This document shows positions 1-51,031 of a stretch of DNA of 64,000 nucleotides, piece by piece; the first letter of the stretch is position 1, and each line of letters opens with the position of its first letter. The stretch is from NCBI GenBank assembly GCA_965217115.1, contig OZ244239.1, forward strand, positions 320,001-384,000, given 5' to 3'. Under the pieces are notes generated by a model. It ran no database searches, had not been told where the DNA came from, and worked only from the letters and a program-made list of their open reading frames with translations. Position numbers and translations under genes: made by a program. The DNA comes from Bdellovibrionales bacterium. Lineage in GTDB: Bacteria > Bdellovibrionota > Bdellovibrionia > Bdellovibrionales > CAYMLA01.

Positions 1-415
1 AACGCTCCTTCACCGCACTTAAGCCCTCAGTTGAAACAGTGGCCTTTTGGTATTCCTGTTCCACGTTCTCGCGCAGGCCCTTCATTGAAGCTCCACGCAA
101 GGCCGTCCTAGCGCCTTCAATTGAAAAACGATCTCGATGTAAAAGCTTGCGAATAAGAAACGCCCACTCTATATCCTTACGTGTATAAACTCTCTGCCCC
201 GTTTTTGATTTTTTAGGACGCAACATCGAAAACTCCGTCTCCCAAAAACGCAACACATACTGTTTCACTCCTAAAAGCTCCGCCGCCTCACCAATCTTAA
301 ACGTCAGCCTAACTGGAATAGATCCAAACTCTTTAACTAATTTCTCATCCCACAGAGTTCCCAGTGACGATGAAAGTTGATCCGACTGGCCTAATTCAAT
401 AAAATCCGTTTCCAT
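1..415 (-). CDS. MerR-family HTH transcriptional regulator (3' end runs off the window)
   Basis: Hand translation from ATG at 415 (GGGGG RBS upstream) gives METDF...FKIGEAAELLGVKQYVLRFWETEF...KSKTGQRVY, with no stop before position 1. Typical position downstream of ihfA. Not in the ORF track. Confidence 0.88.
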   Translation of the reverse strand, partial: METDFIELGQSDQLSSSLGTLWDEKLVKEFGSIPVRLTFKIGEAAELLGVKQYVLRFWETEFSMLRPKKSKTGQRVYTRKDIEWAFLIRKLLHRDRFSIEGARTALRGASMKGLRENVEQEYQKATVSTEGLSAVKER

Positions 416-30024: not shown

Positions 30025-30816
30025 TCACTCAATACCTTCATAAATAAAACTTAAAGCCTCTTTGACCATCAACTGAACCCTCTTACACTCCTGTTCTTTT
30101 ATTTTCTTTGTCTCCTCATTCATATAGAGACGGCGATTCATCTCCACTTGAATAGAGTGACGTCCCCTCTGAGGGTCACCGTAACGCTCCGTCACCCGCC
30201 CGCCGATATAAGGCCAATTATAGGCCACTTGAAAACCTGCTCTCTCATAGGAGCTAATGACTAAATCTTTGAACCTCTGACTACAACTCACTCCATTGAC
30301 ATCGCTCACCACTATCTCTGCCCGCTCTTGACCGGGATCACGATGGAAAGATGTCCCTAGCGAAGGCATACTATGGGCGTCCAAGTGATATACCTCTTTA
30401 AGACCCTTCTCTTCAAAATTTAAAAATCTCTCTTCAACAGCTCCATGAAAAGGCAAGTAATAAGCAGTATAAATTTTCTCGTGAAGCTCTTGGGACATTG
30501 GCTTTGATAATAAAATGTCATTTTTAGTGGTTACCGACCAGTGAAGCCCCTTAGAATGGGTCCCGCTTGCGTTCGAACTTCCTTGAACAGAATCCACATC
30601 AATGTCTTCTTTAAAACGGTTTAAATCCACAACATAACGATGCCAACGGGCTTTAATAAAAGGCACTTTAATTTTATCGACAGCCAATTGATAGATCACA
30701 TCTACATAGCGATCCACATCACACATCAAAACTTCTTCTGGTAAACCCTGAAGCCAAGAAGTCTCAGAAACTATCTCCTCTCCTGAGTGTGGGCTAGTCA
30801 CAAAAAATGCTGTCAT
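30025..30816 (-). CDS. N-formylglutamate amidohydrolase family protein
   Basis: SPHSG, RYVVDLNR, YYLPFH, DAHSM, NWPYIGG and QVEMNR.LYM motifs. Confidence 0.92.
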   Translation of the reverse strand: MTAFFVTSPHSGEEIVSETSWLQGLPEEVLMCDVDRYVDVIYQLAVDKIKVPFIKARWHRYVVDLNRFKEDIDVDSVQGSSNASGTHSKGLHWSVTTKNDILLSKPMSQELHEKIYTAYYLPFHGAVEERFLNFEEKGLKEVYHLDAHSMPSLGTSFHRDPGQERAEIVVSDVNGVSCSQRFKDLVISSYERAGFQVAYNWPYIGGRVTERYGDPQRGRHSIQVEMNRRLYMNEETKKIKEQECKRVQLMVKEALSFIYEGIE

Positions 30817-30980
30817 ATAAAAACACCACGAGTATAAATAACATCACCATTACAAACCATTTTCCATCAAAAACAATCATTGACTCAAAGCCAACAAACT
30901 TGAAAAATCAAATAGAATTAATGCTCCAAATTTATTAACGGCAGAATATACTGTAAATAGACGGGAAAGAGAACTTTATT

Positions 30981-31556
30981 ATGGCAAAAATCTACACAAA
31001 AACAGGCGATAAGGGCCAAACAGGCTTAGTTAGTGGACAGTGTGTCAGTAAAGACCATCCCCGCGTAGATGCTTATGGACAAATTGATGAACTCAACAGC
31101 CGCATTGGCATGGCACGAATTCACACAAATGACGATGAAACTCTCAACTCTTTATCTCAATATCTCGAACGTATTCAGAATGAACTTTTTAATCTCGGCA
31201 GTTTGTTAGCATGTGATGACGATTCTCTACGACTGAATCTTCCTGCTATTAATGAAGAGCATGTACAGTTCCTCGAATCAATCATTGATCAATTCGATCA
31301 AGAGCTACCAGAACTTAAAACGTTCATCATCCCCGGGGGGTCAGCACTTGCCAGCCAATTGCACCTCTGCCGCACTGCTTGCCGCAAAGCTGAGCGCAGC
31401 TGTGTTACTCTTAAAAAACAGAGCTCTGTTCCCGAAGTCTACTTGCAATACTTAAATCGCCTCAGTGATTTTTTCTTCGTCTCTGCTCGTATGGCTAATT
31501 GGTGGCTGGGCATCAAAGATTTTCCCTGGCGCTTTGGGCAAGGGAACCGCCTTTAG
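30981..31556 (+). CDS. PduO-type ATP:cob(I)alamin adenosyltransferase
   Basis: KIYTKTGDKG.T, AYGQIDELNS, FIIPGG, CRKAER and YLNRLSD motifs. Confidence 0.95.
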   Translation: MAKIYTKTGDKGQTGLVSGQCVSKDHPRVDAYGQIDELNSRIGMARIHTNDDETLNSLSQYLERIQNELFNLGSLLACDDDSLRLNLPAINEEHVQFLESIIDQFDQELPELKTFIIPGGSALASQLHLCRTACRKAERSCVTLKKQSSVPEVYLQYLNRLSDFFFVSARMANWWLGIKDFPWRFGQGNRL

Positions 31557-32470
31557 CTGGAACTCTATCGTAAAGCTCAGACATTCGTTTGGCAGCGCCG
31601 CTCGCTGAAGCGAGCATCGCACCAAGCCGAACTCGCTTTACGATAGAGTTCCAGCTAAAGGCTTTTGCTTGAAAGCTTCTGGTACTGAGAACAACGGGGC
31701 GCTTTGGGCAAGGAACCGCCTTTAGATGGAACTCTATCGTAGAGCTCAGACATTCGTTTGGGCAGCGCCGCTCGCTGAAGCGAGCATCGCGCCAAGCCGA
31801 ACTCGCTATACGATAGAGTTCCATCTAAAGGCTTTTGCTTGAAAGCTTCTGGGACTGGGAACAACGGGGGGCTTTGGCAAGGAACCGCCTTTAGGTGGAA
31901 CTTTATCGTATAGCTCAGACATCGTTTGGGCAGCGGCGCTCGCTGAAGCGAGCATCGCGCCAAGCCGAACTCGCTATACGATAGAGTTCCATCTAAAGGC
32001 TTTTGCTTGAAAGCTTCTGGGACTGGGAACAACGGGGGGCTTTGGCAAGGAACCGCCTTTAGGTGGAACTTTATCGTATAGCTCAGACATCGTTTGGCAG
32101 CGGCGCTCGCTGAAGCGAGCATCGCGCCAAGCCGAACTCGCTTTACGATAGAGTTCCATCTAAAGGCTTTTGCTTGAAAGCTTCTGGGACTGGGAACAAC
32201 GGGGCGCTTTGGCAAGGAACCGCCTCTAGATAGGACTCTATCGTATAGCTCAGACATTCGTTTGGGCAGCGGCGCTCGCTGAAGCGAGCATCGCGCCAAG
32301 CCGAACTCGCTTTACGATAGAGTTCCATCTAAAGGCTTTTGCTTGAAAGCTTCTGGGACTGGGAGCAACGGGGGGCTTTGGGTAAGGGAACCGCCTTTAG
32401 GTGGAACTCTATCGTATAGCTCAGACATCGTTTGGGTAGCGGTGCTCGCTTTAGCGAGCACCGCACCAAA
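31528..32470 (+). repeat. Tandem array of ~167-170-bp palindromic units (5 full plus 1 truncated)
   Basis: Leader GCTTTGG recurs at 31531, 31701, 31871, 32039, 32206 and 32375. Each full unit is leader + 28-bp arm + ~58-nt core with GCTCGC-TGAA-GCGAGC hairpin + complementary 28-bp arm + tail ending GAACAACGG. Confidence 0.97.
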
Positions 32471-32506
32471 GATCGTTAGTTTCTTGAGTTAAATACGGGT
32501 GGGTAA

Positions 32507-32875
32507 TTAGTTAGTCTCTTTTAAAAATTGAAGCGCTTCTTGTTTTTTCTTAAGAAGGTATTTATTACAATTTTTTAATTGAGTGTTTCGTCTAATTTCA
32601 GCTGGGCTTAGTTCACCAGCGAGAGCAGAAACGTCAGGAAAACCTAGGCTTTGTATTCTACAAAAGCTAACTCTATTTTTTAAAAGTACTTTTCTAAGTG
32701 CTAACTGTCCTATATATAATTGTGCTATAATTTCGTCCTTAGACATTTTTGTAATTTCGTTTTTTATGTTATCAACATCATAGAATTCACTATTTACTCC
32801 AGAAAAGAGTAATACTTCATCAGCAAATGCTGATACAGAACCTAAAAGGACTAAACTTAATAATATTTTTTTCAT
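32507..32875 (-). CDS. Small secreted hypothetical protein
   Basis: AGGAG RBS, Sec signal MKKILLSLVLLGSVSAFA; AT-rich; no family recognised. Confidence 0.8.
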   Translation of the reverse strand: MKKILLSLVLLGSVSAFADEVLLFSGVNSEFYDVDNIKNEITKMSKDEIIAQLYIGQLALRKVLLKNRVSFCRIQSLGFPDVSALAGELSPAEIRRNTQLKNCNKYLLKKKQEALQFLKETN

Positions 32876-32973
32876 ATTTTTTCTCCTTATAAATAAGTTT
32901 ATTGTGAGTTTTGCTTGCAACTTGTCTTACTAGACAAATAATAAAAAGAAATATTTGTCCTCGTTTTTAGAGC

Positions 32974-33261
32974 CTAGTGGTTTATGAGAGTGTTACACCT
33001 CATTGATTTCTCAATGATTAGTTCTGTTATTGCTAAATCAAACTCTGCCATTTTTTCTTGTGAAACTGATAGTCCAACAGCAAGATTTGCGATCGCATTT
33101 TTATTTAGAGATAATGCAGCTCTCATTTCACTTAGTCGATTAGTACAAAATTCTAGTCTTGTTTTCTCTGAAGCCAGTTTTCCAGCTCTGCTCTGATTTA
33201 ATGCAAAAACCGAATTACTTAACATTAAGATGCTGATCGTTCCAAGTAATAATTTTTTCAT
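32974..33261 (-). CDS. Small secreted hypothetical protein
   Basis: GGAG RBS, Sec signal MKKLLLGTISILMLSNSVFA, two Cys, helical character; AT-rich. Confidence 0.8.
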   Translation of the reverse strand: MKKLLLGTISILMLSNSVFALNQSRAGKLASEKTRLEFCTNRLSEMRAALSLNKNAIANLAVGLSVSQEKMAEFDLAITELIIEKSMRCNTLINH

Positions 33262-33479
33262 AATATTCTCCGTTTTTTGAGTAATGACTCTTAACCTTAG
33301 ATGAATAGGAACTATAGTCGAAAAAAGTATACATCTCTAGAGCTATAGTCATTTGTGCAAAACTTACAAAAAAATGTGGCCTGTCACTTTTTAATGGAAA
33401 TTACACCCCCTAGGGCATCTTTTTTATTAAAATGAGCCTTAAGCTGCTTTGAGGAACATATCCAGATACTCACGGATTT

Positions 33480-33679
33480 CATCTAAAGGCTTTTGCTTGA
33501 AAACTTAGGGGGCGCTTTGGCCAATGGAACCGCCTTTAGCTGGAACTCTATCGTATAGCTCAGACATTCGTTTGGCAGCGCCGCTCGCTTCAGCGAGCAG
33601 CGCACCAAGCCGAACTCGCTTTACGATAAAGTCCCATCTAAAGGCTTTTACTTGAAAGCTTAGGGACTGTGAACAACGG
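33480..33679 (+). repeat. Right-arm remnant plus one further full copy of the ~170-bp unit
   Basis: CATCTAAAGGCTTTTGCTTGAAA at 33480-33502, then a complete leader-arm-core-arm-tail at 33511-33679. Confidence 0.93.
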
Positions 33680-33724
33680 AGTTTAGGGGGGAAACAACGG
33701 AGCTCAACGGGAACAACGGGGCGG

Positions 33725-33889
33725 CGTTGTTCACAGTTAAGTGCACTTTTAGATAAGAGTGGTCCAAAGGGGGTTTGTCTTCAAATGAGTTCGGATTGGT
33801 GCGATGCTCGTGAAGCGAGCGGCGCTGCCAAACGCATGTTTGAATTTGAAGATAAACCCCCTTTGGACCACGGCTTACCTACCCAAAGC
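33725..33889 (-). repeat. Inverted copy of the ~170-bp unit carrying different 28-bp arms
   Basis: The minus strand has a recognisable leader, core and tail. Arms at 33759-33786 and 33844-33871 are complementary (27/28) but unrelated to the array arms. Confidence 0.9.
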
Positions 33890-33891
33890 AA

Positions 33892-34641
33892 CTAAGCGGT
33901 TTGTGTTTTTTTAAACCAACCCAACATAGGATCTTCCCCTATAAACTCAAGCACCTCAACATTGAAGGTTTTTAAATATTCTTTTTGCATTGAATTTAAA
34001 ACAATATCTCCCGATCCAATATGAATAACTTTATGGCCCTTATTTTTCTCTGCTACCATAACCGCTAATTTAGTTAAATCCATTTCACAAGTCTTCAGAG
34101 AGGTCAGTCCATCATCTGAAAAATGATAGGCTCCGTATTTCTTCAAACTCTTGCCCACTAAAAAAGGAACACCCTCATCAATAGGAACTAGTTGCAAGTG
34201 TCTTTTTTCCTTTAGTTTCTTTATATGGGCGTTCACCCACTCTTCCATATTCTCTTTTCCAGTATAGAAACTCAAAGCAGAGACATCGGCACAATCACCA
34301 ATCAAATAAGACGGGGTCCCGTGCAAGCGGCAATAACGACGGTACAACCCTATTTGCACCAACTCCATGATCATATCTCGCCAAACACCCTCTTTCATAA
34401 TCTGGTTATCATCGGCTGTCATGGCATTCAACAGATCCCAATGCTTTTGGGCAGAGGTTGAATATTTAGCATCCAGACACGATTGGGCCTCTCTAAAACA
34501 CTGGCGAATCTCTGGAATACGTTGCACACCCATGCACAAATCCTCATCACCTAACTGATAACTTCCCGAAAAAATAACAATTGCCATAACTTCCCGCCCC
34601 TTCATTTTTAACTCCTCCTCCATATAAAGTAACTTTTCCAT
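33892..34641 (-). CDS. Hypothetical protein, degenerate FabD/acyltransferase-like fold
   Basis: By-eye similarity to FabD segments (VIFSG, PEIRQCFREA, VQIGLYRRY, PSYLIG, IHIGSG); lacks GHSxG. Confidence 0.55.
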   Translation of the reverse strand: MEKLLYMEEELKMKGREVMAIVIFSGSYQLGDEDLCMGVQRIPEIRQCFREAQSCLDAKYSTSAQKHWDLLNAMTADDNQIMKEGVWRDMIMELVQIGLYRRYCRLHGTPSYLIGDCADVSALSFYTGKENMEEWVNAHIKKLKEKRHLQLVPIDEGVPFLVGKSLKKYGAYHFSDDGLTSLKTCEMDLTKLAVMVAEKNKGHKVIHIGSGDIVLNSMQKEYLKTFNVEVLEFIGEDPMLGWFKKTQTA

Positions 34642-34684
34642 GGTTACTTAATTGAAAGATTTCATTTTCTTAACAACATACCTG

Positions 34685-34700
34685 AGCAACAGATATGCCA
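34685..34700 (-). promoter_or_regulatory. Candidate sigma-54 promoter
   Basis: Minus strand TGGCAT-ATCTG-TTGCT has exact -24 GG / -12 GC spacing, ~45 nt upstream of the 33892-34641 ORF. Confidence 0.65.
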
Positions 34701-34943
34701 GCCAAAAACAGTTTTAAATAGAACTGACCCCCTCGGCCTTATAGACTTTTCTCAAAGCAGTGTATTTATTTTTTATGCAGCGCACATACGCTAAGCGTCA
34801 TTTCCCTTTTAAATGCCGGCCTCTCCTAGACTTTTTACATATTTTCCTGCACCTAAGTCCTTTGTTTTGCTAGCATGATTGGGATGACCTTTTTTTAGGA
34901 CAACCAGCTATTGTCTTAAATTTGCAACCAAGGACTGGCAGCA

Positions 34944-50246: not shown

Positions 50247-50708
50247 AATTTAACCTCTTGTTTTATAGTTTTAAAAAGCTTCTACTCTCAATATATGATA
50301 ATTCAATTTTTAGGCCATAGTATCTACCTGTATTCAGGTACTTACGAGCCATTAAACTCCACGGCAAGGGCCTTTAGACGGTAATTGTCCTTCACTGTCA
50401 AAAAGAATGACTCTTTATTAGTTCTTTCCCTTTTTTGTGGGAGGGCTAAATCACAGGCATCTCCTGCTTATGGAAGGTTGAGTTCAGACGACATGTTACT
50501 ACGTACTTTTTTGCAAACTTCCCATTTACGCTTTTCACGAAAAAATATGACTTCCACCTGCCAACCCATCATCTTTAAATGCTTTGTCCGAAGTTGATAT
50601 TGATCGTGATAATTTCCTAACTCGTTATCAAAGACAATTTTAAAGATTCTTTATGACAAACATATGACAAAAAAAAATAGTGGAGCCAGTTTTTTTCTGA
50701 TGAGCTGG

Positions 50709-50858
50709 TTTTTTTCTAGAGTTCTCCCAAAAGAATCCAGCCCTTTTCTTGCTCAAACATTCGTTTGTCACCTTCCATTGCAGGGAAATGCAATGGAAGT
50801 CGCCAAGCCAAACTCGCCGAAAAGAACTGGACTCTTTTGGGAGAACCCTAGAAAAAAA
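50709..50858 (+). repeat. Diverged member of the ~170-bp palindromic element family
   Basis: GCTCAAACATTCGTTTG...CCAAGCCAAACTCGC junction motifs enclose a different inner hairpin, inside a different ~40-bp outer stem. Confidence 0.8.
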
Positions 50859-51031
50859 GGCCCTATTCAATCAATGGGTCAATGGACCTCTTTCTATGAC
50901 TGGCCTCCATGTATAACAACGCTGTTATCCATGGATAGTTTTAGAAAGAGAGCCCTCAAGATGGGTCTCTTGGGAATAGTTCCACTATTTATCACAAAGA
51001 ATCACTTTAAAAGACGAGCTTTCTCGAACCC

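What the first reader, a model, noticed from the sequence alone, without database searches (positions are those of the whole stretch)
31528..32470. Tandem array of ~170-bp long-hairpin units with compensatory base changes
Seen: unit 1 has a perfect 28-bp inverted repeat (31549-31576 / 31635-31662) around a 58-nt core that folds as an asymmetric bubble plus an inner hairpin. Arms co-vary between units: agCtgg/ccaGct (unit 1) becomes agAtgg/ccaTct (unit 2), and cgtaAagc/gctTtacg becomes cgtaTagc/gctAtacg (unit 3). In unit 6 the inner stem is re-paired as GCGGTGCTCGCT-TT-AGCGAGCACCGC. Indels between units break all reading frames. Inference: the structure is maintained at the ssDNA or RNA level, either by selection or by arm-to-arm templated correction as in REPIN/BIME elements. 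Mismatch types are mixed, so the active strand cannot be assigned.
Basis: partly seen in the sequence, partly recalled or inferred. Interest (0 to 1): 0.8.

Follow-up and report, generated by a model that had tools for sequence, protein, structure and literature searches.

The report
Orphan REPIN-like hairpin repeat array
The tandem array is a locally amplified copy of a family of about 70 hairpin-forming "junk DNA" repeats, found only in Bdellovibrio-like bacteria, that resemble the known REPIN elements but sit in a genome with no enzyme to move them.

Summary
The array is real: period 169, 5.6 units, 94% match. It is one locus of a genome-wide family with 62 strong model hits at 45 loci in a closed 2.17-Mb Bdellovibrionales genome.

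Each ~175-nt element has a conserved asymmetric 64-nt core. The core is clamped by 25-28-bp arms that differ between loci yet stay Watson-Crick paired. A left motif holds the upstream gene's stop codon, and a conserved tail follows the hairpin.

Covariation is very strong: 95.7% of cells are paired against 78.7% in shuffles, and 25 of 26 arm pairs have double changes. Wobble pairs are not enriched on either strand, which points to DNA-level palindromy and not to an RNA fold.

Relatives occur patchily in the order. In one genome they adjoin RAYT-class Y1 transposase genes. This genome has no Y1 gene, and no copy is 90% or more identical to any copy over 20 kb away. It is therefore an orphan population that now amplifies only locally.

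The array once had at least 7 units and was split by a ~1-kb ORFan insertion.

The closest known kind is REPIN/RAYT, and this is a new variant of it. The scan met similar core-plus-variable-stem repeats before in other Bdellovibrionales genomes. No RNA data were available.

The parts
30981..31556 (+). Cob(I)alamin adenosyltransferase gene (PduO type). Its last 7 codons and its stop codon lie inside unit 1 of the array.
   Evidence: Pfam PF01923, E 2e-60, domain ends at aa 172 of 191. Orthologues in 29 of 30 relatives align only to residues 1-177..185 of 191.
31531..32469 (+). Tandem array of 5.6 element units: u1 31531-31700, u2 31701-31869, u3 31870-32037, u4 32038-32205, u5 32206-32373, and u6 32374-32469, which is truncated inside the core.
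   Evidence: TRF. Unit identities are 93-99%, with u3/u4 at 98.8%. Covariance-model hits of 144-169 bits.
31574..31638 (+). Conserved asymmetric 64-65-nt core of unit 1: two imperfectly inverted halves around a small variable loop.
   Evidence: nhmmer with this core finds 70 copies genome-wide. Between loci the core is 84.6% identical against 61.5% for the arms.
31549..31576 (+). Arm L of unit 1. It pairs with arm R at 31635-31662.
   Evidence: 28 nt, 100% complementary (I8). Helix 1 of the family has double changes in 25 of 26 pairs.
32470..33476 (.). About 1 kb of inserted DNA that splits the former array. It carries two small ORFs on the minus strand: 32507-32920 (137 aa) and 32974-33261 (95 aa).
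   Evidence: Boundaries read from the sequence. No Pfam or NCBIfam family for either ORF. The 137-aa ORF has no homologue except itself among 5.8 billion proteins.
33477..33508 (+). Remnant of the split unit: the end of arm R plus the tail.
   Evidence: Matches unit positions 119-148 at 90%. Sequence.
33509..33684 (+). Full 'solitary' unit of the same arm type, about 90% identical to the array units. It is the former continuation of the array.
   Evidence: Model hit of 159.4 bits. Identities.
33719..33894 (-). Inverted copy of another arm type, lying tail-to-tail with the previous unit. Its left motif abuts the stop codon of the 249-aa ORF 33892-34641(-).
   Evidence: Model hit of 154.5 bits. 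Stop codon 46 nt before the core.
50703..50882 (+). Copy of a second subfamily. It has the same loop motifs and inner boxes, but a different apical hairpin and no tail.
   Evidence: Model hit of 46.3 bits. Sequence and fold. The same unit appears in the TRF arrays at genome positions 1377175 and 1673700.

Best explanation
The array is a local tandem amplification of one member of a non-coding palindromic repeat family restricted to Bdellovibrionales. The family is a variant of the REP/REPIN kind.

Anatomy of one element (about 175 nt):
- A REPIN-like core made of two imperfectly inverted ~30-nt halves, with conserved bulges and mismatches.
- Arms of 25-28 bp clamping the core. Their sequence drifts but stays Watson-Crick complementary.
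- A left motif (TTGATTTGGGCAAAG) that pairs with the start of the tail and usually contains or follows the upstream gene's stop codon.
- A single-stranded tail (GACTGGGAACARCGGGG), often reiterated and G-rich.

Shown:
- The family, its anatomy and its covariation.
- Its polarity relative to genes in this genome.
- Its patchy spread in the order.
- The absence of any Y1, IS110, TnpB or DDE_Tnp_1 gene in this closed genome.
- The absence of recent long-range copies.
- Local amplification, and the splitting of the array by an ORFan insertion.

Inferred:
- The element was spread as folded single-stranded DNA by an HUH Y1 (RAYT/IS200-class) transposase that recognises the asymmetric core.
- That gene has been lost here.
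- Since then, copies multiply only by replication slippage or unequal recombination. This gives tandem arrays, half-unit arrays, and seams that include the neighbouring gene's end.
- The arrays act as soft spots where foreign DNA lands.
- Arm complementarity is kept either by selection for hairpin formation or by mismatch correction within the extruded hairpin. The data do not separate the two.
For: Family and anatomy:
- 70 core copies by nhmmer.
- 62 model hits of 125.7 bits or more, against 94 bits or less for reverse-strand echoes.
- 45 loci and 30 arm types among 61 full copies.

Covariation:
- 42 pairs, 28 with double changes.
- 95.7% of cells paired against 78.7% in shuffles (0 of 500 reach it) and 34-46% when the partner is slid.
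- Helix 1 has double changes in 25 of 26 pairs.

DNA-level signature:
- In this genome 1559 W-C, 23 G.T, 24 A.C and 28 other; in relatives 996, 18, 24 and 30.
- In the 529-534 kb subfamily the core is inverted relative to the outer frame.

Polarity:
- A co-oriented ORF stops 16-64 nt before the core at 22 of 45 loci. The mirrored side gives 4 of 45, and random intergenic positions 799 of 5000.
- TTGAT lies 44-50 nt before the core at 15 of 45 loci, against 866 of 20000 random windows.

Link to a Y1 enzyme:
- In G020, 6 of about 10 copies or fragments lie 35-240 nt from 5 of 8 ~188-aa Y1 ORFs, and one ORF is flanked on both sides.
- That protein passes Pfam Y1_Tnp (29.5 bits, cut-off 23).
- Many of its 363 homologues are named RayT by JGI.

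Orphan state:
- No PF01797 hit and no homologue of the G020 protein at E<=1.
- Best identity to a copy more than 20 kb away: median 79%, maximum 88.4%, none at 90% or more. Within 20 kb the median is 95.9%.

Known REPIN behaviour matches. Compensatory changes are 'common' and tandem clusters include flanks (PMC3116915, passages read). REPIN populations erode after RAYT loss (bioRxiv 10.1101/2021.07.10.451892, passages read).
Against: The Y1 link rests on one genome.
- No adjacency in G005, G007, G011 or G021.
- 0 model hits in 80 metagenomic loci encoding this Y1 clade at 43-61% identity, and 0 in 20 control loci. No blastn or motif hit there either, apart from one 24-nt match at E 0.37.
- Only 2 of 26 such loci share any repeat between their two flanks.
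- The G020 adjacency could therefore mean that the hairpins attract insertions, not that the Y1 moves them.
- The G020 Y1 gene is multi-copy (8-12 copies) and falls below NCBIfam's cut-offs for both IS200 TnpA (27.9 of 55 bits) and RAYT (18.2 of 80 bits). That is unlike the single-copy RAYTs said to accompany REPINs.

The architecture differs from a REPIN. The conserved part is central and the flanking arms are the variable part.

The genome with no Y1 has the largest population found, though the model was trained on it. Its core is much better kept than its arms (84.6% against 61.5%) and its arms are still about 95% paired. A neutral decaying relic would not obviously show this, and it leaves room for a host function.

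One core pair shows G.T 13 times against A.C once, a hint of strand-specific folding.
Confidence: 0.6

Rival explanations
1. The element is primarily a functional RNA module in 3' untranslated regions. It would be transcribed with the upstream gene. The long hairpin, whose base holds the stop codon, would block exonucleases, stop convergent transcription, or throttle termination of translation. The core and G-rich tail would bind a protein.
For: - Fixed polarity in this genome: 22 of 45 loci against 4 of 45 mirrored.
- The stop codon sits in or just before the hairpin base.
- In the per-copy tally, the gene on the far side is convergent (on the opposite strand) for 57 of 70 copies.
- The core is conserved at 84.6% against 61.5% for the arms, in a genome with no transposase.
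- The tail is conserved, and a G-quadruplex motif follows it on the element strand in 14 of 66 copies against 20 of 5000 random windows.
- One core pair has G.T 13 times against A.C once.
Against: - G.U is not enriched over A.C in the arms on either strand, unlike what I would expect of a selected RNA helix (my general knowledge).
- The core can be flipped relative to the frame.
- In other genomes there is no polarity: 12 of 27 co-oriented against 12 of 27 mirrored.
- No T-run terminator or promoter signal lies in the array.
- No Rfam family matches.
- The polarity can also come from a strand-specific DNA target that contains TGA.
Confidence: 0.2
2. The elements are recombination (att-like) sites of a gene-capture system. 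An unidentified recombinase inserts cassettes at them, which gives the repeat-bounded ORFan islets.
For: - Islets bounded by same-type copies in direct orientation occur at the window locus and at 427-430, 474-483, 913-920 and 1814-1822 kb. Their genes lie mostly on the opposite strand.
- At 1814-1822 kb the seam includes a decayed copy of the core gene's last ~95 nt. At 913-920 kb earlier notes e1-2388045 and e1-2388046 report a copy of the hldA gene's end in each seam; I saw only that the repeated seams there reach beyond the element.
- The window's ORFan pair lies inside an element unit.
- The 137-aa ORF has no homologue except itself.
Against: - No recombinase lies at any islet. The four PF00589 hits are at 605, 743, 1564 and 1679 kb, and the nearest is about 14 kb from a copy.
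- The window insertion deleted about 26 nt and broke a unit at a point not shared with other islets. That looks like illegitimate insertion.
- Tandem duplication with arbitrary unit boundaries, followed by insertions, explains the seams without any special enzyme. Such clusters with flanks are known for REPINs.
- The order of the paired 7-mers is the reverse of integron attC sites. This is my reading of the sequence against a recalled consensus.
Confidence: 0.1
3. The array is an assembly artefact, or it encodes a repetitive protein (the 214-aa minus-strand ORF).
For: - One frame is open for 218 codons because u3-u5 are each 168 nt.
- Copy number was not checked against reads.
Against: - The units differ by 1-7% with private variants.
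- The same family forms 11 other multi-unit loci and 33 single ones.
- The genome is a single contig.
- Covariation is palindromic and uses all codon positions.
- Other arrays have periods of 187, 224 and 172, which are not multiples of 3.
Confidence: 0.04

Closest known systems
REPINs (REP doublets forming hairpins) with RAYT transposases, e.g. Pseudomonas fluorescens SBW25 (Bertels and Rainey 2011, PMC3116915; passages read)
   Same: - Dozens of extragenic copies.
- Two inverted conserved halves that form a hairpin in single-stranded DNA.
- Compensatory changes across the hairpin.
- A single-stranded tail on the hairpin.
- Tandem clusters of near-identical units that include flanking sequence.
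- A Y1-class gene beside copies in one related genome.
- Populations persist after loss of the enzyme.
   Different: - The conserved halves are central and are clamped by long, fast-evolving arms. They do not form the element's ends.
- No RAYT gene in this genome.
- The candidate enzyme in G020 is multi-copy and below the RAYT model's cut-off.
- Strict placement on stop codons with one polarity.
- I saw no conserved GTAG-type head. This is by eye only, and the motif is recalled.
REP/BIME arrays of enterobacteria
   Same: Clustered palindromic units sit at the 3' ends of genes, often between convergent genes.
   Different: As I recall, BIMEs alternate REPs in opposite orientations with short linker motifs. 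Here whole 169-nt hairpins repeat head to tail.
IS200/IS605-family derived palindrome-associated elements (recalled; not read here)
   Same: Folded-strand recognition of imperfect hairpins by a Y1 HUH enzyme, and insertion 3' of a short fixed target without duplication. This would explain TTGAT at the left edge. I recall TTGAT as the target of ISDra2.
   Different: This element has one large hairpin, not separate left-end and right-end hairpins. No such IS is in this genome. The TTGAT also pairs with the tail, so it may belong to the element itself.
ERIC/IRU and Correia (CREE) elements; bacterial MITEs
   Same: Imperfect palindromes of 100-200 bp near gene ends. They can supply stop codons and terminal codons to genes.
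   Different: - No autonomous IS with the same ends.
- I saw no target duplication (by eye only).
- The arms vary between copies, whereas MITE terminal repeats are the conserved part.
Undescribed core-plus-variable-stem repeats noted earlier by this scan in other Bdellovibrionales (e1-4751913, e1-2404643, e1-2415265, e1-2145633)
   Same: A fixed core with freely changing but paired stems, restriction to Bdellovibrionales, and a proposed DNA-level reading.
   Different: No sequence look-alike turned up in the scan's index. Two of those notes derive the stems from the neighbouring gene flank. Here the arms are homologous between loci (61.5% identity).

Membership tests
REPIN / REP-RAYT system | Two conserved REP-like sequences in inverted orientation that form a hairpin in single-stranded DNA | tested here: met
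   The core halves pair, with conserved asymmetries. The core is invariant at 40 alignment columns.
REPIN / REP-RAYT system | Many copies, confined to extragenic space | tested here: met
   62 strong model hits at 45 loci. The only overlaps with genes are at the last codons.
REPIN / REP-RAYT system | A cognate RAYT gene in the same genome, flanked by the repeats | tested here: not met
   No PF01797 match in the closed genome, which is 99.4% complete. No homologue of the G020 Y1 protein at E<=1.
REPIN / REP-RAYT system | Physical linkage of repeats and a RAYT-class gene somewhere in the lineage | tested here: inconclusive
   G020: 6 of about 10 copies lie beside 5 of 8 Y1 ORFs. Against this: none in four other genomes, 0 of 80 metagenomic Y1 loci, and 2 of 26 loci with any shared flank repeat.
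REPIN / REP-RAYT system | Conserved parts lie at the element's ends and the spacer is variable | tested here: not met
   Between loci the core is 84.6% identical and the arms 61.5%. The conserved doublet is central.
MITE | A related autonomous insertion sequence with the same terminal repeats | tested here: not met
   No DDE_Tnp_1, IS110, TnpB or Y1 gene. There is one rve gene and one truncated resolvase elsewhere. The Y2 hit is PutA. The G007 terminal repeat does not bracket larger units.
MITE | Target-site duplication | tested here: inconclusive
   I saw none when reading the flanks of solitary copies, but the element ends are not defined to the base.
Integron attC site | An integron integrase nearby, with variable tip and conserved base boxes in the attC order | tested here: not met
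   The four PF00589 hits are far from the arrays. The tip is conserved and the stem variable. The box order is reversed, by my reading against a recalled consensus.
Any Rfam RNA family | Score at or above the family's gathering threshold | tested here: not met
   There are three sub-threshold matches to plant miRNA hairpin models: 34.5 of 90, 33.9 of 268 and 31.3 of 90 bits.
Retron msd/msr | A hairpin DNA template next to its reverse transcriptase | tested here: not met
   The only RT is a type VI retron at 1.868 Mb, far from any copy. It was not found in 4 of the 5 other element-bearing genomes tested (G005, G007, G011, G020); G021 has only a distant RT at 28% identity.
Intrinsic terminator | A G+C-rich stem followed by a T-run | tested here: not met
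   The scan of 30800-34800 found no terminator-like site inside the array.

The most novel reading that the evidence does not exclude
In this genome the elements are no longer parasites of a transposase. They would be host-kept modules with three properties:
- The hairpin encloses the stop codon of about two dozen genes.
- Its arms are kept as exact mirror images by repair templated within the extruded hairpin. Among near-identical local copies, 5 of 14 differing arm positions are already mirrored.
- Its tandem arrays serve as integrase-free landing pads that capture ORFan genes. This would give a Bdellovibrio-like predator a cheap way to take up foreign DNA behind housekeeping genes.
Probability: 0.15. 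Interest if true: 0.75.

Novelty: new variant of a known kind. Interest (0 to 1): 0.42.

Why it matters
The finding extends REPIN-type elements to Bdellovibrionales, where I found none in print, in an unusual form: a fixed asymmetric core inside long arms that evolve fast yet stay complementary.

It is a clean natural case for one question. How do palindromic DNA repeats keep their pairing, by selection or by templated correction, once their transposase is gone?

The family also explains features that earlier looked local and puzzling. One is the repeat-bounded ORFan islets in this genome. Another is genes whose last codons and stop codon are supplied by repeat DNA.

For annotation, it flags about 45 loci where long spurious ORFs and altered C-termini should be expected.

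Tried and rejected
- Rfam at E<=1 on 30500-33500: only sub-threshold plant miRNA hairpins.
- Retron origin: the RT is a type VI defence retron. It was not found in 4 of the 5 other element-bearing genomes tested; G021 has only a distant RT at 28% identity.
- IS110, TnpB, DDE_Tnp_1 and Y2 candidates: none. The Y2 hit is PutA.
- An autonomous element behind the G007 terminal repeats: 19 matches, no IS-like pairs.
- Viral contigs: 0 matches to the core pattern.
- Expression: no RNA holder listed. There are four rows from one sample and one study, possibly the source sample. This says nothing about expression.
Copy number is therefore unverified.
- Orientation against replichores: mixed. It follows the upstream gene (my tally).
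- My first mismatch count gave 53 A.C against 13 G.T. I rejected it because it came from fixed-offset arms and one inherited mismatch. The model-based alignment gives 24 against 23.
- Arms as inverted copies of the local gene flank (the idea in earlier notes e1-2415265 and e1-2145633): not supported here, because the arms are homologous between loci.
- Small ORF starting in arm L after a Shine-Dalgarno-like GGGAGG: rejected, because the window's own units lack the ATG (my reading).
- Synteny of the cobO locus: not pursued, because the relatives are at most 51% identical.
- Generality of the Y1 link: negative in 80 metagenomic loci.
Full report
OBSERVATION

The region 31531-32469 is a tandem array with period 169, 5.6 copies and 94% matches. 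Unit 1 has the stated perfect 28-bp inverted repeat around 58 nt (I8). Either strand folds into one long hairpin far more stable than shuffles:
- RNA: -85.8 and -85.9 kcal/mol, z -7.9 and -8.6.
- DNA: -52.8 kcal/mol, z -8.85.

The two compensated substitutions and the re-paired inner stem of unit 6 are in the sequence. Within the array there are also one to four uncompensated arm mismatches per unit in u2-u5. One sub-claim fails: u3-u5 are each 168 nt, so a minus-strand frame stays open for 218 codons. I treat that ORF as spurious.

THE ARRAY IS ONE LOCUS OF A FAMILY

The window lies in a single-contig genome of 2,170,531 bp with 39.6% G+C.
- A search with the 64-nt core finds 70 copies.
- A covariance model built from 26 representatives gives 62 hits of 125.7-190.6 bits. 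The next best hits are reverse-strand echoes of 94 bits or less.
- The copies fall into 45 loci: 34 single, and 11 with two to six units. The window's array is the largest.
- Tandem Repeats Finder shows other arrays with periods of 187, 240, 273, 224/297 and 172. It also shows arrays made of half-units or tails only: 147, 66, 96 and 132 nt.

ANATOMY

Each element has, in order:
- a left motif, TTGATTTGGGCAAAG;
- arm L of 25-28 nt;
- a core whose two halves are imperfect inverted copies, with conserved bulges and a conserved C.A mismatch, around a small variable loop. In the 427-430 kb subfamily that loop holds an extra hairpin;
- arm R, complementary to arm L;
- a tail, CTTTGAAATCTGC..TTGACTGGGAACARCGGGG, often followed by more G-tracts.

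GATTT of the left motif pairs with AAATC of the tail, so the whole hairpin is about 150 nt. There are 30 arm types among 61 full copies.

COVARIATION
- On the 26-sequence alignment, RNAalifold predicts 42 pairs, and 28 of them have compensatory double changes.
- 95.7% of 1079 cells are paired. Shuffles give 78.7% (0 of 500 reach the observed value), and sliding the partner gives 34-46%.
- 190 cells carry double changes, against 52.8 expected.
- In the long helix, 25 of 26 pairs show double changes. Seven of the 12 pairs of the apical core helix never vary.
- Between loci, the core is 84.6% identical, the arms 61.5% each, and the tail 68.4%.

DNA OR RNA?

On the model-based alignment, the 39 distinct copies of this genome have 1559 Watson-Crick cells, 23 G.T, 24 A.C and 28 other. 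Thirteen of the G.T cells sit at one core pair. The 27 copies from other genomes have 996, 18, 24 and 30. Wobble is thus neither frequent nor favoured on one strand, so the arms behave as true inverted repeats of DNA. An earlier crude count that suggested an A.C excess was an artefact of a shared inherited mismatch.

In the 529-534 kb subfamily the core is inverted relative to the left motif and tail. Recombination between the arms would produce exactly that.

POSITION
- At 22 of 45 loci, a co-oriented ORF of 80 aa or more ends 16-64 nt before the core. That places its stop in or just before the left motif.
- The mirrored test gives 4 of 45, and random intergenic positions give 799 of 5000.
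- Most of the other 23 loci are secondary copies inside local clusters.
- In the window, cobO orthologues align only up to residue 177-185 of 191. The element therefore supplies the last seven codons and the stop.
- TTGAT starts 44-50 nt before the core at 15 of 45 loci, against 866 of 20000 random windows. Its TGA is the stop codon at several of them.
- In other genomes, copies also lie near gene ends but without polarity: 12 of 27 against 12 of 27.
- The array holds no promoter-like or terminator-like site.
- A canonical G-quadruplex motif follows the tail in 14 of 66 copies, always on the element strand, against 20 of 5000 random windows.

DISTRIBUTION
- The model finds relatives in 7 of 60 genomes of the same order: G007 21-24 hits, G005 11, G020 8, G011 7, G021 1-2, and G008 and G016 one weak hit each. 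These lie in six different families. The only other genome of this genome's own family has none.
- Across these genomes the arms and the inner boxes differ but stay complementary, while the loop motifs CTCAGACA and GAACTCG persist.
- An exact-pattern scan of 185,579 species genomes gave 13 loci. All are in assemblies titled Bdellovibrionales, Bdellovibrionaceae or Pseudobdellovibrionaceae.
- The same pattern gave nothing in viral contigs.
- I found no description in print. I searched 'Bdellovibrio' with 'palindromic', 'repeat' and 'intergenic', and with 'miniature inverted-repeat' (listings only).

WHO MOVES IT?

This genome has:
- no Y1, IS110, TnpB or DDE_Tnp_1 gene;
- one rve gene, one truncated resolvase, and four tyrosine-recombinase hits far from the arrays;
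- one type VI retron. Its RT was not found in four of the five other element-bearing genomes tested, and G021 has only a distant RT at 28% identity.

Y1-like genes are common in the order: 47 of the 60 relatives, often in many copies. In G020, six of about ten element copies or fragments lie 35-240 nt from five of eight ~188-aa Y1 ORFs, and one ORF is flanked on both sides. By my arithmetic, chance would give well under one such adjacency. The protein has HUH-like and tyrosine motifs and passes Pfam Y1_Tnp, but falls below NCBIfam's cut-offs for both IS200 TnpA and RAYT. Many of its 363 homologues are named RayT by JGI.

Against a general link:
- no adjacency in G005, G007, G011 or G021;
- no model hit in 80 metagenomic loci of this clade or in 20 control loci;
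- no blastn or motif hit in those loci;
- only 2 of 26 such loci share any repeat between their flanks.

The Y1 link is therefore a lead resting on one genome. The alternative is that the hairpins attract insertions.

STATE OF THE POPULATION HERE
- No copy is 90% or more identical to any copy over 20 kb away (median best 79%, maximum 88.4%). Copies within 20 kb have a median best identity of 95.9%. Amplification is therefore now purely local, as expected without a transposase.
- Among 14 pairs of near-identical local copies, arm positions differ singly 9 times and as paired doubles 5 times. Among best matches between distant loci the counts are 43 single, 204 paired double and 16 other. Paired doubles at such low divergence are more than independent hits would give. 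Exchange between units could also create them, and the sample is small.

THE WINDOW LOCUS
- Unit 6 stops inside the core at 32469.
- The stretch 32470-33476 carries two small minus-strand ORFs with no family. One has no homologue except itself.
- At 33477 the end of arm R and the tail resume, followed by a full unit at 33509-33684 of the same arm type.
- So the array once had at least seven units. It was split by about 1 kb of foreign DNA, with roughly 26 nt lost.
- Similar repeat-bounded islets, with genes mostly on the opposite strand, lie at 427-430, 474-483, 913-920 and 1814-1822 kb. At 1814-1822 kb the seam includes a decayed copy of the core gene's end; at 913-920 kb the repeated seams reach beyond the element.
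- Earlier notes of this scan (e1-2388045, -46, -47) treated the 913-920 kb islet as a local curiosity and reported a copy of the hldA gene's end in its seams.
- One model covers all of them without a dedicated recombinase: tandem duplication with arbitrary unit boundaries, followed by insertions. Tandem clusters of this kind, including flanks, are documented for REPINs.

COMPARISON AND VERDICT

The closest known kind is the REPIN/RAYT system. Shared features are:
- inverted conserved halves that form a single-strand hairpin;
- common compensatory changes;
- tandem clusters that include flanks;
- a tail on the hairpin (PMC3116915, passages);
- erosion after RAYT loss (bioRxiv 10.1101/2021.07.10.451892, passages).

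It differs in four ways:
- the conserved doublet is central, inside long variable arms;
- it is polar with respect to stop codons;
- its genome has no RAYT;
- its only candidate enzyme is atypical.

I file it as a new variant of a known kind. It works like a REPIN, but membership is not established, because the defining RAYT linkage fails in this genome and is inconclusive elsewhere. The scan has noted comparable core-plus-variable-stem repeats in other Bdellovibrionales. No sequence look-alike was indexed.

Noticed in passing
window 32470-33476: About 1 kb with two minus-strand ORFans (137 and 95 aa) is inserted inside unit 6 of the array. The broken unit resumes at 33477.
   Followed up: yes
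window 33509-33894: Two elements of different arm types lie tail-to-tail in opposite orientation, and their reiterated tail motifs form a further palindrome. The minus-strand one abuts the stop of a 249-aa ORF with no known family.
   Followed up: partly
window 50703-50882; genome 1377175-1377525 and 1673700-1674029: A second subfamily of the hairpin element has the same loop motifs and inner boxes, but a different 11-bp apical hairpin and no tail. I did not take a census of it.
   Followed up: partly
genome 1867139-1870675 (L031): A type VI retron defence system (HTH_VI plus RT_VI). It holds the genome's only reverse transcriptase.
   Followed up: partly
genome-wide; the tails of the elements: 14 of the genome's 75 canonical G-quadruplex motifs sit at element tails, always on the element strand. 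The tail motif GGAACARCGGRG is often reiterated two or three times. Tail-only tandem arrays exist at 1657438, 1510219 and 1026087.
   Followed up: partly
relatives G001-G060: Short Y1_Tnp-like genes (160-270 aa) occur in 47 of 60 genomes of the order, with up to 29 copies per genome, yet G000 has none. 24 of 26 metagenomic loci of one clade show no repeat shared between their flanks, so these genes look neither like classic IS200 copies nor like classic RAYTs.
   Followed up: partly
genome 427-430, 474-483, 527-534, 913-920, 1814-1822, 1908-1911 kb: Clusters of same-type element copies spaced 1-3.5 kb apart bracket small genes, mostly on the opposite strand. At 1814-1822 kb the seam carries a decayed copy of the neighbouring core gene's last ~95 nt.
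   Followed up: partly
L071, L124, L067 (relatives): Small toxin-antitoxin or defence-type genes (HEPN with a nucleotidyltransferase, BrnT with CopG, Gp49-like) lie beside element copies in other genomes.
   Followed up: no
window 31655-32299 (-): A 214-aa ORF runs through 3.8 units of the array because three units are exact multiples of 3. Gene callers are likely to annotate it as a spurious gene.
   Followed up: partly
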